A stretch of DNA of 64,000 nucleotides from Octopus vulgaris (lineage: Eukaryota). A program made the translations under genes and the position numbers. Positions within the stretch are counted from its first letter, which is position 1; each line of letters begins with the position of its first letter. The stretch covers positions 140,306,001 through 140,370,000 of the forward strand of contig OX597817.1 of assembly GCA_951406725.2 (NCBI GenBank), written 5' to 3'. Under the pieces are notes generated by a model. The model was not told the DNA's origin and did no database searches. It saw only the letters and a list, made by a program, of their open reading frames with translations. This document shows positions 6,652 to 56,167 of this stretch, in pieces.

Positions 6652-7765
6652 CATTTTTTTCTATTCTTCAGCTAAAACAGTCTCCAGTTCTTGTAGAGAT
6701 GGTGGTGGACGATATTGATTCCTTACTTGTTTTTCTAAAATGCACAATAACTGTTCAATAATATTGAGATCTGGGGACTGTGGTGGCCATATAAGATGTT
6801 CCTTGTGCCATTCAGTAACAACTTTAGCTGTGTGAATTGGTGCATTATCATCCTGAAAGATTGCGTTTCCCTCCGGAAACGGTTCTGCAAACATGGGATG
6901 AATTTGATAAGACAAAATGCTTAAATAGTCTTGACTATTAATTCTGCCATGAAGTGTAATCATTGGGCCGGCGAATTTCCAAGATATAGCCCCACCAGAT
7001 CATCACAGATCCTTCTCCATGTTTAACAGTTGGAAAAAGGCAGTGTGGATCAAGTGCTTCTTTTGGCTGTCTTCACACGTATACACGGCCAGTGGTTGGA
7101 AATAAGGTAAAGGATGACTCGTCCGAGAAAATAACATTCTTCCACTGCTCTAGGGATCAATTCCGTATGTTTTTACTCCACTTTAAACGCTTTGCAACGT
7201 TTGTTTTTGAAAGTAATTGTTTTCTGATTGCAGCCCTCCCGTGAAATCCGGCTTTGTGCAGCTCCCAGCAAACAGTTTTTGTGGAAACTGGGTTCTCGAG
7301 GTGGTCATTAAGTTCTGCAGTAATTTTGGGAGCTGTACTTTTGTGATCCTTTCTAACAATTTGTTTAAGAGTTCGATGATCCCTATCTGAAAGTCTTGGT
7401 TTTCTTCCGGAGTTTTGTTTTGACGAGGAGGTTTTTCCCTCTTTTTCAAAGACTGCCATTACTTTCGAGACAGTACTATTTAATACACTAAACATTTCGG
7501 CTGTTTGCATTACGCTAGCGCCTGCCATGTGAGCACCAACAATTTGACTTCTTTGAAAGTCCGATAGATCTGTTAGTTTAATGAATGTTAATTACATTTT
7601 TCTAACGATATCTAAAAAGAAACAGCGATTTTAGCAAAATATATAGTGCAACACTAGTAATAAATCAAAAAGCATAAAAATAAGCAAGCTTTTGACGGTT
7701 ATATAGATATTTCAAAATTATGATGCTATGATGCTAGGTGTTTCCATTATTTTGTCCAACCCCTG
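6652..7765 (-). mobile_element. Tc1-like (DD34E) transposon, 3'-truncated, transposase pseudogene
   Basis: TIR CAGGGGTTGGACAAAATAATGGAAAC at 7765 followed by TA; HTH region (ORF 7157..7528, SGRKPRLSDRD); catalytic motifs FSDESSF, FQDDNAPIH, SPDLNIIE; stops and frameshifts. Confidence 0.95.
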
Positions 7766-9032: not shown

Positions 9033-9610
9033 AGCGAGCTGGCAGAAACTTTAGCACGCCGGGCGAAATGGGTAGCCGTATTTCGCACGTCGCCACGTTC
9101 TGAGTTCAAATTCCGCCGAGGTCGTCTTTGCCTTTCATCCTTTCGGGGTCGATAAATTAAGTACCAGTTGCGCACTGGGGTCCATGTAATCGACTTAATC
9201 CGTTTGTCTGTCCTTGTTTGTCCTCTCTGCGTTTAACCCCTTGTGAGTAGTAAAGAAATAGGTATTTCGTCTGCCGTTACGTTTTGAGTTCAAATTCCGC
9301 CGAGGTCGACTTTGCCTTTCATCCTTTCGGGGTCGATTAAATAAGCACCAGTTACGTACTGGGGTCGATGTAATCGACTTAATCCGTTTGTCTATCCTTG
9401 TTTGTCCTCTCTGTGTTTAACCCCTTGTGGGTAGTAAAGAAATAGGTATTTCTTCTGTCTCAACGTTCTGAGTTCAAATTCCGCCGAGGTCGACTTTGCC
9501 TTTCATCCTTTCAGGGTCGATAAATTAAGAACCAGTTGCGTACTGGGGTAGATCTAATTGACTGGCTCCCTCCCCCAACATTTCGGGCCTTGTGCCTAGA
9601 GTGGAAAAAA
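9033..9610 (+). mobile_element. SINE family A, trimer-like multimer
   Basis: Units restart at 9261 and 9445; the last unit ends in the alternative tail also used by the 2724 copy. Confidence 0.9.
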
Positions 9611-10418: not shown

Positions 10419-12220
10419 AGTAATGCCCATTCTTGTTTTCGATCATTTCATTATATTACATGTTTTAGTTTAGGATGTAATGTGAGGATGGTTTGAGAGT
10501 TTGCTATTTCTAAGAGATTAAGCGTTGTGCAAAAGGTTCTCTTGGTTCATTTCCATTTTTTATTTTTACTTTCCTAAATGTAATTTCTTTTTTCTGTTTT
10601 TTCTTTTTTTTTTCTTGTAGTTTTTTTCAAATTTTCGACAAATAGTCGTACAATAAAGGATGGAGTCTCACACATTTTCCGACATCTGAAGACCTTTAAA
10701 ATGGCGTCTTTTAGAGTCAGCATTACATTAAACATTCTCTATAAGAAACGCTAGGGAGCATCTCGATAGTCACTACACATCATAGAAATAGCAGCCATAC
10801 TCCCTCACATCTAAGTAGACAATGTCTCTTACAAAAACTAAAGCTTACAACACCTGTTGTGTAAATCCTAGATATGCAAAAAGATGGGACGGTTAAATTT
10901 GATATACCTAAGATTATAAGGCTTGCTCAACCGGAACTGACCTGGGGCTACAGAACAACGACAACAACAACAACCTATCTGGAATTATCTCACTGTCTTT
11001 GAAATTGGAATCTAAACGAGATCGTTATGTCAGAAATATAAATAACATTATAGTCATATCAAAATTCTGTCTTGATATGGAGATTAAACTGTTAAAAACG
11101 AAACAAAAACAGATTTATTGGTTAACGAAGATACTTTTGCATTTTAAAAGTGAAATTGTGTCTTATAATATCTCTTTAAAATACAATTATTCACGTTGTA
11201 CTTTCTGCTATTGACAATGGTTACAACGTTAAAAGTGAAACACAAACGAAACTCCATAAATCTGCTTTCAACACTGAACGTACTTTGGCTGCTGGCCAAC
11301 TCGGTTTCTTTTCCGCTTCTCTGTTCTAATAATATACTAAAACACTCTTAACTCTTCTTCCCATCACCTTATTGAACGTACACCATTATCACCACCACCG
11401 CCATATAAATCTATGAATTCAATCCAACGAGGCGGTCGTTCAATCTGCCAGATCTAGCAAGCAAATCTCCCTCAAATTTCACCTTGCTGCCTTCAAAAGA
11501 GACAAATACATTGGATAATTTCATCCATTGTCTGGAGAAAGGAAAGCCAGTCGACATGGTAGACGTGGGTGAAGTACGTTTGAGCATCACCCGATTCAAT
11601 TTGGAGCGATCTGATGCTAAACCTCAACAACTACTTCTTCATTGTAACCAACTTGTTTTCCCTTTGTGATGCATACAATAACTGCCCTCCTCGTCCTCTA
11701 ATATCTACACGCTATATATAAAAGATTTACCCACCATATAAGAACGCGTTATGTATAATATCCGCTCGCTTTGCCACAGAATGTCAGCTACCAAATCGGC
11801 CTCCATAAATTATTGGGAGTTCCTCTTAGACTTCTGTTAAAATTCCAGAAATCGGCGATGTTTTTTTAGGAATATCAGTTCAAACCAGTTGTACTGGCTC
11901 GAACTGGGCTGAGGGCCAAGGTTTGGGTGATACTCCGAGGGTGCTAGGGGCAGACTAACGTATTTACTGTTTTACGGTTTTAGTGCAGATTAATTTACTT
12001 ATTACTGTGAATCCAAACAAAATGTTTAATCAATTGAAGTTATAACCACAATGAGAAGACTAAGCCACAAATGTTAATGATAAGTTTTAAGAAAAAAATG
12101 CAAGGGAAAAAACTCCGAAATTCAGGTAAATAAAAGGTGAAAATAGAGATATGAGTGGAAGGTTGGTCTGACGTGTAGTGGACAACCCCGACATGTTTCA
12201 ACCTTTTTGGACATCCTCGG

Positions 12221-13047
12221 TGTTATATAATCATCACAACAAACATGAACAATCAACGTCGCCCATTGTCTCCCTTGATAAAAGGACTTTCACTTTGTTT
12301 CTCGCCAAAACAATTAACTTGTACAACAACGGCAGTCGAATAAAGTATCTTGTATCGTTAACACGTTGTTTCAGTCTCTCTCATTTTCTTAATCTTTCAT
12401 ACTAAGTACTCACTACTTCCTTTAATACTCAATACTATATATATATATAACAACAACATGGTGTCAGAATACTAAAAGAACCCAAAATACAGAAACCAAA
12501 GGGGCAAAATAATTAAAAAACTAGAGCAACCTCGTTCATACTTAGTAATAACAGAGGAAGGAAATACAGTCAAACGAAATAGACAACATATTCTTAAAAC
12601 AAACGAACACGTTCGCATAACAGAAGAATTAGATTATGAAAATATATTTCCAAAATCAACAAACACGCATGAAAAAACAAAAACAGCACAACTACAGAAT
12701 TCAACACTACAAAATAATAAAACCACAAAAAGTGGACGACGAATAATTATTCCCTGTAGATACAGATGATATAAAAAAAATAAAAAAAAATAAATAAAAA
12801 AAAGGAAGATGTTATATAATCATCACAACAAACATGAACAATCAACGTCGCCCATTGTCTCCCTTGATAAAAGGACTTTCACTTTGTTTCCCGCCAAAAC
12901 AATTAACTTGTACAACAACGGCAGTCGAATAAAGTATCTTGTATCGTTAACACGTTGTTTCAGTCTCTCTCATTTTCTTAATCTTTCATACTAAGTACTC
13001 ACTACTTCCTTTAATACTCAATACTATATATATATATAACAACAACA
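12221..13047 (+). mobile_element. TRIM-like miniature LTR retrotransposon derived from Ty3/Gypsy (827 bp)
   Basis: 238-bp LTRs at 12221-12458 and 12810-13047 (TG..CA, one visible mismatch); TSD CTCGG at 12216-12220 and 13048-13052; PBS TGGTGTCAGAA at 12459; purine tract before the 3' LTR. Confidence 0.95.
12503..12769 (+). pseudogene. Gypsy integrase C-terminal remnant inside the mini-LTR element
   Basis: ATG-less open frame GKIIKKLEQPRSYLVITEEGNTVKRNRQHILK...TKSGRRIIIPCRYR*; PRSYxV...G...RNRxH and SGR...P.RY are typical Gypsy pol C-terminal motifs. Confidence 0.8.
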
Positions 13048-14559
13048 CTCGGTGATATATACTTTAACAGGTACATACCAAATTATGTCCTTTATCATTT
13101 AGTTAAGCAAGAGTGTCGTTGCGCCCATGTCTGTTGGAGGGGAAGGAGGGGTAGAGGTATTCTCAAACCAGAAACCTGATCCGAATTCTTACAACAGAGT
13201 AAACTCTGCTAGAAGTACATTAGGTGTCATGTGATGATTTTTAGAGATTTGTCTTTTCAGTGAAGACGGCGTAATAATTGGAAAATTATAAAACAATAAC
13301 GCTGGAATATCTACCATGGATGTCTCCTTCGTGAAGAACATATAGTTAACTGTGGATTAATACTTAACTAACCTGTATCTGAAACTAGTTCTTCTTAAAA
13401 TAGACAAGTTAAATATGTTATCTTTTTACCAAACACCAACAATTGATAGCCTCATTGTACAGATATGATTATGCTTAGCAAGCGAACATAATCATATACG
13501 ATGTCTACGCAGTTATCAATGACGTTTACACTATTATATATGACATTCCAACATATTCTGCTGAGGTTTCCACAATAATAAATTACGTATAGCGAGACAT
13601 CTTTGTCGTCGCTTCAATTGATTCTGACGTCAACGCATTTTTCTCTATTGGTGCTTCGTTGCTAAATATCTAATTATCATTCATGTATCTTTGATGATAA
13701 TGCAGTTGATGGTATAGATGTTGACATTATTGAGTTATGAGCAAAATTCCCTCACGTGATGCTTCAGTCCTTTCTGCTTACACAAATCCAGTTTTATATT
13801 TCTCATCACATCGCCATTGTTACATCCAAATACTATTTTTTTTCTTGATAAGTACATTATTGACAAAGCAATGTTCATTTTTATATTTACCATTTTTATT
13901 GTTTTACTCCATCTTTACTCAATTACTCTAGCTCCATTTTTCATATTTTTGACAGTCACAAAACATTGTCTAGTCGTAGACAACGAACAAGTGTATATAT
14001 TATCAGTGACAATAAAAATAATTATTGCTATTAATCTTTACTACTACAATATTATAGTTCTATACATCACCATACAAACTGGCTCTTCTGTTTAATGATA
14101 ATACTGTTGCGGCGAATTTCTCCTAAATTTCCATACTCACTCACACACAGGAATATGCACATACATGTATGCATCTTTGTATGTATGTATGCATTTGTAC
14201 ATGCCTGATAATTAGCTAATGACAGGCCCAATTGCCTTCGTAGTATGAAAACCAGTTAACAATATGCTGTTGTACTTACTACATTTATGTCGGTGAACAT
14301 AATACAGCAATATTTAATTTTCTCTCTTTCTGCGCGAAGGCCGGTAACAGATGATGTTAGATAGGGAGGTGCATCGTGTAGAGATGTATACGTTAGAGCT
14401 TCTCTATGGAATGCAGACGGATTGGCTTTCCTTTCAGGGAAGAAGACGGCCTGTCCGCCTAACCAGCTGCTTGGCATCTTTCGAAAGCTAAAACAATTCG
14501 AGGAAATGCATTGCGCCCAGCGATATATAATATTGTCTGATGGTCTGGTGGATACAGCA

Positions 14560-22052: not shown

Positions 22053-22584
22053 AGGCGGAGATGGTGGGAGAAACATTTTGATCCCCGATGCTGTTATATA
22101 CACACACACAAACATATTTGGCCAGAATAATGTAATGGTGTTGCAATTACTCACACCACCATATTTGGCTGCCACGCCCAAAAGAAGGCCATTTACTTAA
22201 TTGACATTAATCCACCCACCAACAGACATCAACAATAATATCCTTCAGACATACTGTTTCTTCTCGCTTTCCCATTTCTAGTTTTCTACAATTAACCCCA
22301 GCATCAATGTTCCACTCCTCTCACATGTAAACGTTATTCGCATCTGAACTGAGCATTTTAAACACATACACACACATTATAGTGTATACACATAAAAACA
22401 TTGATTGAAAAACATTGGGGAATGAATAAAGATAGAGTAACAGGTTAGTACAATTCGACAATCCTTCGATATCAGTGCATGACGTCATTCACCCATGCAA
22501 CCTTTGCTCTGAAAAAGTGGATGCATGACGTCATCTCCTCATACCGACACTCTGTAGACCAATATCGAAGGCACGCCAATGTAC

Positions 22585-22797
22585 TTAGTATAGAAGGGAG
22601 TTCAGCGTAGGTATTCCCTTTTTCACTGATCTTCAGCTTTATGTTAACATCCACTGGGCAGCTAATTTCCACAACTGTGCACAGTTTCTCTTCTCTATCC
22701 CAAATCACTAAATCAGGTCTGTTGTGCTTATATTTTACTGAGGTCTTCACTGGGACATTCCACCAGTATTCTTTTTTATTATGTGTGGCTATGGCTC
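22585..22797 (-). mobile_element. R4/Dong LINE fragment (RLE endonuclease region)
   Basis: HNRPDLVIWDREEKLCTVVEISCP (PD..D/E nuclease motif); closely similar to 54750-54891. Confidence 0.85.
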
Positions 22798-41419: not shown

Positions 41420-42273
41420 CGAGGTCTGATCAGTAAGTATCTGGACTATTGCCATAGTAACGAAGCTGAAGCACACAGAATAAAGCCACTTGGCAAACAT
41501 TGACCTTGAACTCTGCTGTGCAGGCACACTAAGTTTTAACATCCTAACTCACTTCCGCTGTTTACAGCAGTGCCTGGAAGGAAGGTATGTAGTGTATGAT
41601 TGTTGCATTGACCATGACAGAGAAAGTTGTCATGGCAATGCCTGCCCAGAGGCCTACACAAAGTTGCAGAAAGTGTACATAGAGGAGTGTATGAGCTGCG
41701 CAGAAGTGTACGAGTGTTTCAAACGTTTCCATGCTGGCCGAAAAAATGTCAATATTAATAAATGTTCTGGGAGACCTACAATGAGCAGAACTGAGAAAAT
41801 CATTGAAGATGTGCGGGTAGCTGTGAGGGAAAACCGTCGAATCACCCTCCGTGAGTTATCAGAGGATGTGCAGATTAGTTACGGTTTAGTTCAGTCCATT
41901 ATCACTGAAGATTTGGGTATGAGACACATGCCTGCCAAATTTGTTCAGTTGCACAAAATCTCATATATTGTGTTGAGAATGATGAAAACTTTGTGAAAAC
42001 TTTGCATAGGCCTCTTAGCACATATCACCAAGCTGTTGGAAAAATTTGATGCAGATTCTCAGCTTAACTTTCTGTGTTATGTTCAATGTGATGATCATAG
42101 AGTACACATCTTCCTTCCAAGCACTGCTGTAAATAGCAGAAGTAAGCAAAATATTAAAACTTAGTGCACATGCATGGCAGAGTTCAATGTCAATCTGTGC
42201 CAAGCAGCTTCACTCTCTGTAAATTAGCTTTGTTACTATGGCAACAGTCCAGATACTTACTGATCAGGCCTTG
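41420..42273. mobile_element. Mariner derivative built from two inverted 5' ends
   Basis: TA-flanked C(G/A)AGG(T/C)CTGATCAGTAAGTATCTGGACT termini; left arm encodes the HTH region (EVYECFKRF..G...SGRP..S, RRITLREL, LGMR...AKFV); right arm on the minus strand encodes LRICIKFFQQLG. Confidence 0.9.
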
Positions 42274-53685: not shown

Positions 53686-54892
53686 CCCTTCGGCAGCATC
53701 TTTTAACCACCAAGTGTCGACGTGCATCCCTTGACCAAGCTTGCATGCATGAGGCTGATAACATCATAAGACTTGGACGGCAGCTCCTTGAGCAACACTC
53801 TTTGTAGCCTAGAATACATACTTACTTACTTACTTGTACTTGTGGCGACATTCACCCTGGGCGGGTTGAGTCGGCTTCTTCTACCACCCTCGAGGCATCT
53901 CGAACCATGGCAGCCCACGCACGACGGTCCTGCGCCAGTTCATTGGAGATAGCGAGCCAGTCACGGTTCCATCGGCACAGGCCGACCACCTGCGAACCCG
54001 TGAGCACGGAGAGGTCCTCCTTGATCGTCGTAGCCCAGGTCTTGAGCTGCCCGCCAGCGCTTTTCCGCTAGTTGGGAAGTGGAGTTGGGAGAAGGACATC
54101 ACGGCTCAGTTCGCCCACCGGACGCCTACATGCATGGCCAAACCACCGCAAGCGCCGTTGCAGAAGGACAGATGGAAGGGGCCGTAGAGATAGGCGAAGT
54201 CGGAGATTGGCGGTGGGGACACGATCCACCCGACGGCAACGAAGAATGCACCGGAGGCAGTCATTGTCGAAGTCTTCCAGCCTTCGTTGAATACAAGGCC
54301 AAAGAAGTAGCACGACTCTACCGCAACGTATCACCAGATGAAAGGATGAGCCTATATGAGCAGAAGACTATGCATGGATATGTTAGTAGAAAGCTCCGAG
54401 ATGAAAGTAACATTGAACATCAAAGCAGTCTATCATGGATCGATAACTCGATTGCTACCTCCCACTTTGAAGGGTATGTGTTTGCAATCCAGGAACAGGC
54501 AATATCAACCAAATACCTGATGCACAAAAGGGACAGAAATGCACTAAGAGAAATAAAATGTGACAACCGATGCAGACTTTGTAGAGTTCACACTGAAGAT
54601 ATCACCCACATCATAAGTAGTTATCCGAAAATTTCATCACGGTGTTATCTACCCTGAGACATGAGGTTGTAACTGGGACATTCTATAATGAAATCTGTCG
54701 GAAGGACAACCCCGAGGAGAAAGAAATAAGAACCCACAGTATGGTAGAAGCCATAGCCACTCAAAATAAAAGGGAATACTGGTGGAATGTACTAGTGATG
54801 ACCTCAATAAAATGTAAGCACAACAGACCTGATATAGTGATTTGGGATAGAGAAGAGAAACTGTGTACAGTTGTGGAAATTAGCTGCCCAGC
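53684..54892 (+). mobile_element. R4/Dong LINE post-RT to RLE segment, inverted relative to its RT part and split by an RTE
   Basis: KTMHG, EGYVFAIQEQAIST, CRLC...E.I.HI.S zinc knuckle, RHEVV, RPDIVIWD..VVEISCP. Confidence 0.9.
53819..54287 (-). mobile_element. 5'-truncated RTE LINE nested in the R4/Dong element
   Basis: RRLEDFDNDCLRCIL...QRRLRWFGHACRR; (TAAG)n tail; TSD GAATACA on both sides. Confidence 0.9.
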
Positions 54893-56167
54893 TAATTTCA
54901 CTTTCCTTGATTTTGTCGTATTCTAAAATCCCCAGATGTTTATATCCATTAGTCTCAATATCTTTGATTTTCTCGCCGTTGGGTGCCTCTACACCATCAG
55001 ACGACACTACTTTGCCTCTTTGCATTAAAAGTATACCACACTTTTTAGTCCCAAATTCCATTCCGATATCCCCACTGAATATCTGCACTGTTGAAACCAG
55101 GCCATTTATTTCACGTTCGGTCTTACGCCAAATCTTTAAACCATCCATATATAACAGATGGTTTAATTTTCCTCCACTTTTCAAAGTCAACTCTGATGCC
55201 ACTTTCCGTAGTATCTGTATGAAGGGTAATCATACAAATCACAAACAGCAATTGCGATGGGCTGTCTCCTTGGAAAATACCCCTCTTGATGTTAAACCTC
55301 GCCAAAAATTTCCCACATGAAGTTAACTCTGTATTCCAGTTCTTTATGGATCCCTTGATAAAATTTGATATGTTATCAGAAACCTGTAGCAGCTCAAGAT
55401 TTTCTAAAATCCAGGAACGGGGGACCATGTCATACGCTTTCTAATAATCAATCCACGTCATGCCCAGATTAGTAACTCTTGCCATTCTGTCTATCAGAAG
55501 TTGGTCCCTTGTCCCTCGGTTTTTCCTTCTGCACCCTTTCTGTTCCACTGGCAGTCTGTCATTTATTACCAGGAAGTTATAGACATAAGTAGATATTATT
55601 CCTTTCATCAGCTTTCCCACCTGAGGCAGACAGGTGATAGGCCGGTAATTATCCCCTATATTACCTTTACTAAAATCCTTTTGGCAAAGAATTGTTTTAC
55701 CTGTGGTCAGCCACTTTGGGATTTGTACACCGTTGTTGATCATTTTATCCATTGGCATGGCTATTCTTCTGTGTAGTGTTGGGCAATTTTTCAACCAATA
55801 TCCTTGTGCTCCATCCGGCCCTGGGTATTTCCAGTTTGGTATCTTTGTTGTCTGTTCGGTTACCATTTCAACCGTTATTCTAATATTGCTCTGTTTCACT
55901 TCATACTTTTCCGATCTTAATTCATTCAACCATTTAGCGTCTTTGTTATGCTTTCTTCCATTATCCCAGATGTTACTTTAAAGCTCTCCACTTTCTTCAG
56001 TGTCTGATCTCTCATTGCTGTGTTAACCTTACCATTCAGCTGTTGATAAACCCTTTTCTAGTCTTGTTGGAACAATCTGCTGATTTTATATTGTTCAATT
56101 CTTTAGTCATATTTCTTGATCTTTGTCGCTTTAGCCTGTCATCTTTGTTTGAGCTCTTCAAGGACTA

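What the first reader, a model, noticed from the sequence alone, without database searches (positions are those of the whole stretch)
12216..13052. Very young TRIM-like mini LTR element whose PBS appears fused by microhomology to the integrase tail
Seen: two 238-bp TG..CA LTRs differing at one visible base, TSD CTCGG, PBS TGGTGTCAGAA, a purine tract, and a 351-bp interior that is only an 88-codon Gypsy integrase C-terminus. The PBS runs straight into gtc-aga-ata (VRI), the motif that normally precedes this integrase segment. Known: TGGTGTCAGAAGT is complementary to the 3' end of tRNA-Leu; TRIMs are non-autonomous LTR elements described mainly in plants and a few animals. Inference: gag-pol was deleted via the shared GTCAGAA, leaving all cis signals. 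This could be a recently mobilised TRIM family; I do not know of one described in cephalopods.
Basis: partly seen in the sequence, partly recalled or inferred. Interest (0 to 1): 0.8.

Follow-up and report, generated by a model that had tools for sequence, protein, structure and literature searches.

The report
Gutted copy of young Gypsy retrotransposon
This is a recently inserted, 827-base jumping gene that kept both end repeats and lost most of its middle, likely in a single deletion accident; its longer relatives are abundant, the shortened form was not found in any of five sequencing runs checked, so it is likely an ordinary broken copy rather than a new family of miniature elements.

Summary
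The anatomy is real: 238-bp LTRs differing at one base, TSD CTCGG, tRNA-Leu-type PBS, PPT, and an 89-codon Gypsy integrase tail. Two runs of related organisms show the exact empty site, so the insertion is recent. The proposed PBS-to-integrase fusion is wrong. 'VRI' is out of frame with the tail. Contigs of a longer form match the PBS plus leader to 12502 and the integrase tail from 12499, so the break lies 30 bases past the PBS, at a 4-bp AAGG overlap. The longer form runs at roughly 75-125 times flank depth. No contig across the junction was seen in any of 5 runs laid (of 24 listed); in two, depth there equals the parent contig exactly. Contigs drop rare variants and no genome was held, so a few extra copies are not excluded. 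Best reading: a one-off internally deleted copy of a Steamer-like (C-clade-type) Gypsy family (0.55 after insertion, 0.13 at copying). Assembly collapse 0.17; true low-copy TRIM family 0.12. The scan holds no look-alike note. Interest low.

The parts
12216..12220 (+). Target-site duplication, left copy (CTCGG)
   Evidence: empty site with one copy in X6 and X10 (table 5)
12221..12458 (+). 5' LTR, 238 bp, TG...CA, AATAAA at 12339
12459..12469 (+). Primer-binding site TGGTGTCAGAA, tRNA-Leu type; matches 11 of the 12 bases given for Steamer
   Evidence: PMC8905726 section 9; ARAGORN test
12470..12502 (+). Start of the parent's own 5' leader; the out-of-frame 'VRI' (12463-12471) straddles PBS and leader
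   Evidence: X8 record 25 and X6 record 19 match to 12502 with 0 other letters, then run on unlike the window; frame check
12499..12502 (+). Deletion junction: 4-bp overlap AAGG shared by the 5' and 3' halves of the longer form
   Evidence: loose ends behind 12502 (X1, X3, X6, X8, X10) and before 12499 (X3, X8, X10)
12500..12769 (+). Remnant of pol: last 89 codons of a Ty3/Gypsy integrase plus stop; no start codon, no catalytic core
12796..12809 (+). Polypurine tract, 14 purines abutting the 3' LTR
12810..13047 (+). 3' LTR, 238 bp, one difference from the 5' LTR
13048..13052 (+). Target-site duplication, right copy (CTCGG)

Best explanation
This is one recently inserted copy of an abundant Ty3/Gypsy LTR retrotransposon whose gag-pol interior is missing between two AAGG words, likely removed after insertion by microhomology-mediated break repair, and it is likely a single dead-end copy rather than a family. 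Shown: the insertion with a 5-bp TSD, the empty site in relatives, the break point at 12499-12502, a longer form that continues on both sides of the break, and its high depth. Inferred: that the longer form is an autonomous, single-ORF Steamer-like element of about 4.5-5 kb (so about 3.5-4 kb were lost); that the loss came after insertion; that repair rather than chance made the overlap; that no other locus carries the junction.
For: Empty site in X6 and X10 (table 5). Loose ends place the break at 12499-12502 in 5 of 5 runs for the 5' half and 3 of 5 for the 3' half. X8 holds just two contigs on 12455-12574, one per half, running on for 622 and 674 letters; X10's 3' contig runs on for 845. 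Depth over 12503-12526 equals the parent's 3' contig exactly in X3 (5842.7) and X8 (925.1), leaving nothing for a bridging contig; X3 was read whole and keeps variant contigs at depth 4-9 nearby, against a flank depth of 46-54. X3 has an LTR at this site (record 23 crosses the right border by 39 letters, record 16 the left by 28) yet no junction, which fits a loss after insertion. Read by eye, the 30 loose letters before 12499 are stop-free in the tail's frame and put Arg-Ile 20 codons before the Pro of PRSY, the commonest spacing in relatives (VRx 21 residues before Pro in 14 of 34 hits that have the motif): the true motif lies in the lost part. Full-length relatives of the tail have protease-RT-RNase H-integrase order in one ORF of about 1,300 aa. 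Young LTR elements with large internal deletions bordered by 1-11 identical bases are described in maize (PMC4806543, passages).
Against: The junction itself was not seen in any run, so it rests on the assembly alone. X1, whose flanks are identical to the window (0 of 1069), was only 80% read and lacks the parent's 3' contig as well, so it neither confirms nor denies. Contigs drop rare variants; X8's graph is clearly simplified. X3's allele could be a solo LTR, which would say nothing on timing. An overlap of 4 or more bases arises by chance in 2-6% of random joins, so the case for microhomology is modest. Only 30 letters of the parent are visible on each side; its coding capacity was not seen.
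Confidence: 0.55

Rival explanations
1. Assembly collapse: the individual carries a longer element here and the 827-bp form is a mis-join.
For: No bridging contig in 5 of 5 runs, including X1, which matches the window's flanks exactly. The window's A at 12655 is G in all covering contigs of X3, X6 and X10, so this copy has at least one letter seen nowhere else.
Against: The window has no N in 64,000 bases. A join at a 4-base overlap is typical of repair, not of overlap or k-mer assemblers (general knowledge). X1 was 80% read and has no cover at all at 12503-12518.
Confidence: 0.17
2. Born deleted: reverse transcriptase jumped between the two AAGG words during minus-strand synthesis and the short cDNA was integrated once.
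For: All cis signals are intact, the TSD is clean, and template jumps at short overlaps are a known retroelement error (general knowledge). Unchecked scan notes report mis-copied LTR elements elsewhere in this genome.
Against: X3 has an LTR at this site but no junction contig; if the copy were born short, a two-LTR allele in X3 would carry it.
Confidence: 0.13
3. A true, very young TRIM: the short form has been copied in trans by its parent to a few other loci, below what these contigs show or only in the assembled population.
For: Size (827 bp), LTR length, PBS and PPT fit the TRIM definition (PMC6934838 introduction). Near-identical parent sequence is abundant. Plant TRIMs arise this way (OsajRetroS10; PMC4717578 section 18).
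Against: No bridging contig in two informative whole runs, one of the same organism label as the best holder (X8) and one that keeps depth-4 variants (X3). No second copy in the 64-kb window. Only 44 bases of 5' interior remain, so a packaging signal may be lost (inference).
Confidence: 0.12
4. One reading: deletion through GTCAGAA shared between the PBS and the integrase's VRI codons.
For: The letters read VRI and lie 67 bases before the Pro of PRSY, near the 19-27 residue spacing of relatives.
Against: Out of frame. Parent contigs match the window through the PBS to 12502 with no difference and diverge only there; the integrase side begins at 12499.
Confidence: 0.02

Closest known systems
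Steamer and other C-clade (Mag lineage) Ty3/Gypsy elements of molluscs (PMC8905726 section 9 part 1 and passages read; PMC6238403 passages read)
   Same: PBS TGGTGTCAGAA directly behind the 5' LTR (Steamer: TGGTGTCAGAAG, tRNA-Leu, with 1-2 changes in the last three bases); short TG...ACA LTRs; relatives of the tail are single-ORF gag-pol proteins of about 1,300 aa, many named K02A2.6-like, the label that paper links to the C-clade.
   Different: LTR is 238 bp (Steamer sub-families 153-219) and starts TGTTATA, not TGTAACA. The clade is defined on an RT/RNase H tree, and those domains are missing here. The family seems more abundant (about 75-125 times flank depth) than the at most 15 full-size Steamer copies per bivalve genome.
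TRIMs, especially rice OsajRetroS10 derived from OsajLTRA10 (PMC4717578 section 18 read); biv-TRIM (PMC6934838 first fifth read); Helenus and Ajax (PMC10886601 passages read)
   Same: Under 1 kb, two LTRs of 100-250 bp, PBS, PPT, 5-bp TSD, no mobilising protein, derived by internal deletion with a break just past the PBS.
   Different: TRIMs are multi-copy families; here no second copy of the junction was seen. The interior is mostly a recognisable integrase tail. The overlap is 4 bp, not a 25-bp duplicate.
Internally deleted LTR copies, e.g. maize centromeric CR elements (PMC4806543, passages read)
   Same: Young element (near-identical LTRs) with a multi-kb internal deletion bordered by a few identical bases.
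   Different: Animal Gypsy family; the deletion leaves only 351 bp.

Membership tests
TRIM | Under 1000 bp with two 100-250 bp terminal direct repeats | tested here: met
   827 bp; 238-bp LTRs
TRIM | PBS behind the 5' repeat and PPT before the 3' repeat | tested here: met
   of 129 motif matches in 120 metagenome loci ARAGORN called 68 tRNAs, 52 of them Leu; host tRNA not available
TRIM | Encodes no protein for mobilisation | tested here: met
   only an 89-codon integrase tail without start codon or core
TRIM | Integrase-made target-site duplication | tested here: met
   5-bp CTCGG; empty site in X6 and X10. It may have been made by the full-length ancestor
TRIM | The short form itself is mobilised in trans (several loci share the structure) | tested here: not met
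   no bridging contig in 5 runs; zero residual depth in X3 and X8. Contigs can drop rare forms and no genome was held, so a few copies are not excluded
Ty3/Gypsy LTR retrotransposon (parent family) | Protease-RT-RNase H-integrase order, integrase last | tested here: inconclusive
   integrase tail sits last before the PPT; the order was seen in 4 of 4 full-length relatives scanned (protease not matched in one), not in the parent itself
C-clade / Steamer-like (Mag lineage) | Monophyly on an RT/RNase H tree with reference elements | not testable with these tools
   RT and RNase H are deleted; the parent's sequence could not be fetched
C-clade / Steamer-like (Mag lineage) | tRNA-Leu PBS TGGTGTCAGAAG directly after the LTR | tested here: met
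   11 of 12 bases (against PMC8905726); descriptive for Steamer, not shown to be exclusive to it
Steamer family proper | LTR of 153-219 bp starting TGTAACA | tested here: not met
   238 bp, starts TGTTATA

The most novel reading that the evidence does not exclude
A TRIM caught at birth: a Steamer-like Gypsy derivative that kept every cis signal, has about a hundred near-identical helpers, and has begun to copy itself to a few loci in one population. It would be the first cephalopod TRIM (none found in searches) and an animal TRIM with its parent and exact break point known.
Probability: 0.12. Interest if true: 0.55.

Novelty: new member of a known kind. Interest (0 to 1): 0.2.

Why it matters
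As a single deleted copy it is ordinary. Two things are useful: it is a clean presence/absence marker among four labelled organisms, and it points to a young, abundant Gypsy family with little sequence variation among its main copies. If the short form proved to have moved, it would allow a direct test of how TRIMs arise in animals and how little 5' leader a Gypsy RNA needs to be packaged.

Tried and rejected
No RNA holder listed; not evidence either way. Word-based search with the 97-residue frame found nothing among 55 candidates and Pfam gave no family for it; phmmer found the relatives. X1 shows no cover at 12503-12518, uninformative because the run was 80% read and the parent contig is missing too. 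Paper search for the PBS letters returned 510 papers; the 25 listed were unrelated. PMC11046912 describes a Steamer-like element with an Asn PBS, so this PBS is not universal among such elements. Self-BLAST found no other copy of the element in the window (output partly cut, the visible top hits were the two LTRs and simple repeats). Scan notes: none by sequence, none nearby. BEL/Pao or Copia identity was considered and dropped: relatives of the tail have integrase last and Gypsy-type names. No fold or complex was run; it would not change the reading. Supplements of the cited papers were not opened; repeat libraries in them (e.g. PMC13282606) might hold this family or a short derivative.

Full report
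Observation. Two 238-bp direct repeats at 12221-12458 and 12810-13047 start TG, end CA and differ at one base. CTCGG flanks both ends. The 351-bp interior starts with TGGTGTCAGAA and ends with 14 purines against the 3' LTR. An open frame of 89 codons runs 12500-12766. It has 83 relatives at E<=0.001 among 1.84 billion proteins, the best at 60% identity. Of 22 relatives scanned, 3 pass the Pfam integrase-core cut-off and 1 more hits it weakly, upstream of the matched stretch. A profile of 26 relatives plus the window's frame found 757 longer proteins; most of the 120 listed carry RT, RNase H and integrase domains, and many of the named ones are 'K02A2.6-like'. The window's frame aligns to their last 100 or so residues (best E 1e-16 within that set). 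Four scanned in detail have RT, RNase H and integrase in Gypsy order. So the remnant is the tail of a Ty3/Gypsy integrase.

PBS. Steamer elements of bivalves have TGGTGTCAGAAG directly after the LTR, described as complementary to tRNA-Leu (PMC8905726 section 9); the window matches 11 of 12. As an independent check I scanned metagenome contigs for a T-loop motif (recalled consensus) followed by the PBS complement. Of 129 matches in 120 loci, ARAGORN called a tRNA at 68; 52 were Leu (28 CAA, 19 CAG, 4 AAG, 1 TAA), 16 were other types, and 61 matches had no call. These are not the host's tRNAs.

Age. No genome is held, so I used public runs. Twenty of 24 listed runs hold the stretch; I laid 5 of them (X1, X3, X6, X10; X1, X3, X6, X8). 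X6 (organism C) and X10 (organism D) each have one contig joining 12215 to 13048, skipping exactly the element and one TSD copy. X3 (organism B) has contigs crossing into the LTR on both sides (39 letters on the right, 28 on the left), and X1 (organism A) on the right (30 letters, one short of the tool's bar). Flank differences from the window are 0 of 1069 (X1), 2 of 1074 (X3), 8 of 1073 (X6) and 13 of 1072 (X10), gaps aside. The LTR pair differs by 0.42% (95% interval 0.01-2.3%). This fits an insertion after the split from the C and D haplotypes and before the A/B split. X1 may be the source of the assembly and is not independent support.

The junction. The VRI codons (12463-12471) are 67 bases before the Pro of PRSY, one base out of frame with the tail, and their frame closes after 17 codons. 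The resemblance is understandable: in 34 of 60 anchored relatives a VRx motif lies 19-27 residues before that Pro, most often 21. The contigs settle it. In all 5 runs a longer form matches the window to 12502 and then continues with other letters; in X3, X8 and X10 a longer form matches from 12499 on and has other letters before it. The two halves overlap in AAGG at 12499-12502. X8 has only these two contigs on the stretch, with no mismatch, running on for 622 and 674 letters; X10's 3' contig runs on for 845. Read by eye, the loose letters before 12499 are open in the tail's frame and hold Arg-Ile 20 codons before the Pro, so the real motif is in the lost part. The PBS and the 33 bases after it are simply the parent's own 5' end. 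An overlap of 4 or more bases arises in 2-6% of random joins: suggestive of microhomology, not proof.

Family or single copy. The parent's 3' contig runs at about 75 (X10), 87 (X1), 113 (X6) and 108-127 (X3) times flank depth. The tool warns that depth is no copy number, so these are rough. A contig carrying the window's junction would have to cover 12503-12526. There, total depth equals the parent's 3' contig exactly in X3 and X8, both read whole. X3 keeps variant contigs at depth 4-9 in the same region, well under its flank depth of 46-54. In X6 the depth steps are explained by contigs that start at 12502 or later (45 pieces were not listed, so this is arithmetic, not a listing). In X10 the 3' contig is unbranched through the site (its piece table was cut). 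X1 has no cover at 12503-12518 in the 80% read. So a junction family of tens of copies is unlikely in these runs. One or a few copies cannot be excluded, since contigs drop rare forms. It also means the junction has no support outside the assembly.

Mechanism. Most likely a full-length Gypsy copy inserted here, making the CTCGG duplication, and later lost its interior between two AAGG words during break repair. Shown: insertion, break point, overlap, abundant longer form. Inferred: the order of events (X3 has an LTR at the site without the junction, though that allele could be a solo LTR), the repair pathway, and the size lost (about 3.5-4 kb if the parent has the 1,300-codon ORF of its relatives; at least about 1.4 kb from the contig overhangs if they do not overlap). 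Rivals are an assembly collapse (0.17), a reverse-transcriptase jump before integration (0.13), and a real low-copy TRIM (0.12).

Comparison with what is known. It looks like a TRIM: under 1 kb, 100-250 bp repeats, PBS and PPT (PMC6934838), and rice OsajRetroS10 arose by a similar deletion just past the PBS (PMC4717578 section 18). It fails the feature that makes a TRIM a family, mobilisation of the short form, as far as tested. The parent resembles Steamer-like C-clade elements in PBS and protein relatives but is not Steamer proper by LTR length and start, and the defining RT/RNase H tree could not be made. Single young copies with large deletions at 1-11 identical bases are known (maize, PMC4806543 passages). 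TRIMs outside plants are reported from hymenopterans, cestodes, bivalves, nemerteans and vertebrates. Searches listed no paper on a cephalopod TRIM by title or abstract start, and the O. vulgaris repeat paper uses 'trim' only for curation steps (PMC13282606 passages); its supplements and repeat databases were not seen.

Verdict. New member of a known kind; interest 0.2. The novel reading, a TRIM at birth, keeps probability 0.12 and would merit 0.55.

Noticed in passing
window 12499-12763 and 12819-12939, run X10: The family's main contigs in organism D differ from the window by 1 of 265 (interior) and 0 of 121 (LTR) letters while the flanks differ by 13 of 1072; small numbers, but it hints at recent activity of one sequence type across the labelled organisms. 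LTR depth is 2.07 times interior depth there, as expected for mostly two-LTR copies.
   Followed up: partly
window 11700-12215, run X1 record 1: The left-flank contig stops aligning at 12215 with 10 letters left, the same cut point as the empty-site contigs of X6 and X10, while the right-flank contig enters the LTR. X1 may carry both an empty and a filled allele. Unresolved.
   Followed up: no
window 12455-12502 versus 12499-12574: The parent's 5' half is deeper than its 3' half in X8 (1409 against 925) and apparently X3, but about equal in X6; other derivatives or subfamilies may share the 5' leader.
   Followed up: no
window 12655: The window has A where all covering contigs of X3, X6 and X10 have G: a private change of this copy or an assembly error.
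   Followed up: no
window 6661-7591 (-): Broken Tc1-type transposase: HTH_Tnp_Tc3_2 (E 2e-14) and DDE_3 (E 2e-9) in separate frames.
   Followed up: partly
window 41484-41996 (+): Mariner-like transposase fragment, weak HTH_48 hit (E 6e-4, below cut-off).
   Followed up: partly
window 54046-55981 and 22472-22795: Fragments of a non-LTR retrotransposon with RT-like, zinc-finger (zf-RVT E 0.008) and restriction-like endonuclease-type motifs; pieces lie on both strands. Family assignment is from recall.
   Followed up: no
window 9090-9560: Three head-to-tail copies, about 190 bases apart, of a repeat containing GTTCAAATTCCGCCGAGGTC, resembling a tRNA-derived SINE head (by eye).
   Followed up: no
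window 12018-12083 and 13155-13349: Short stretches of raised depth and loose ends in all four runs: small pieces of other repeats in the flanks.
   Followed up: no
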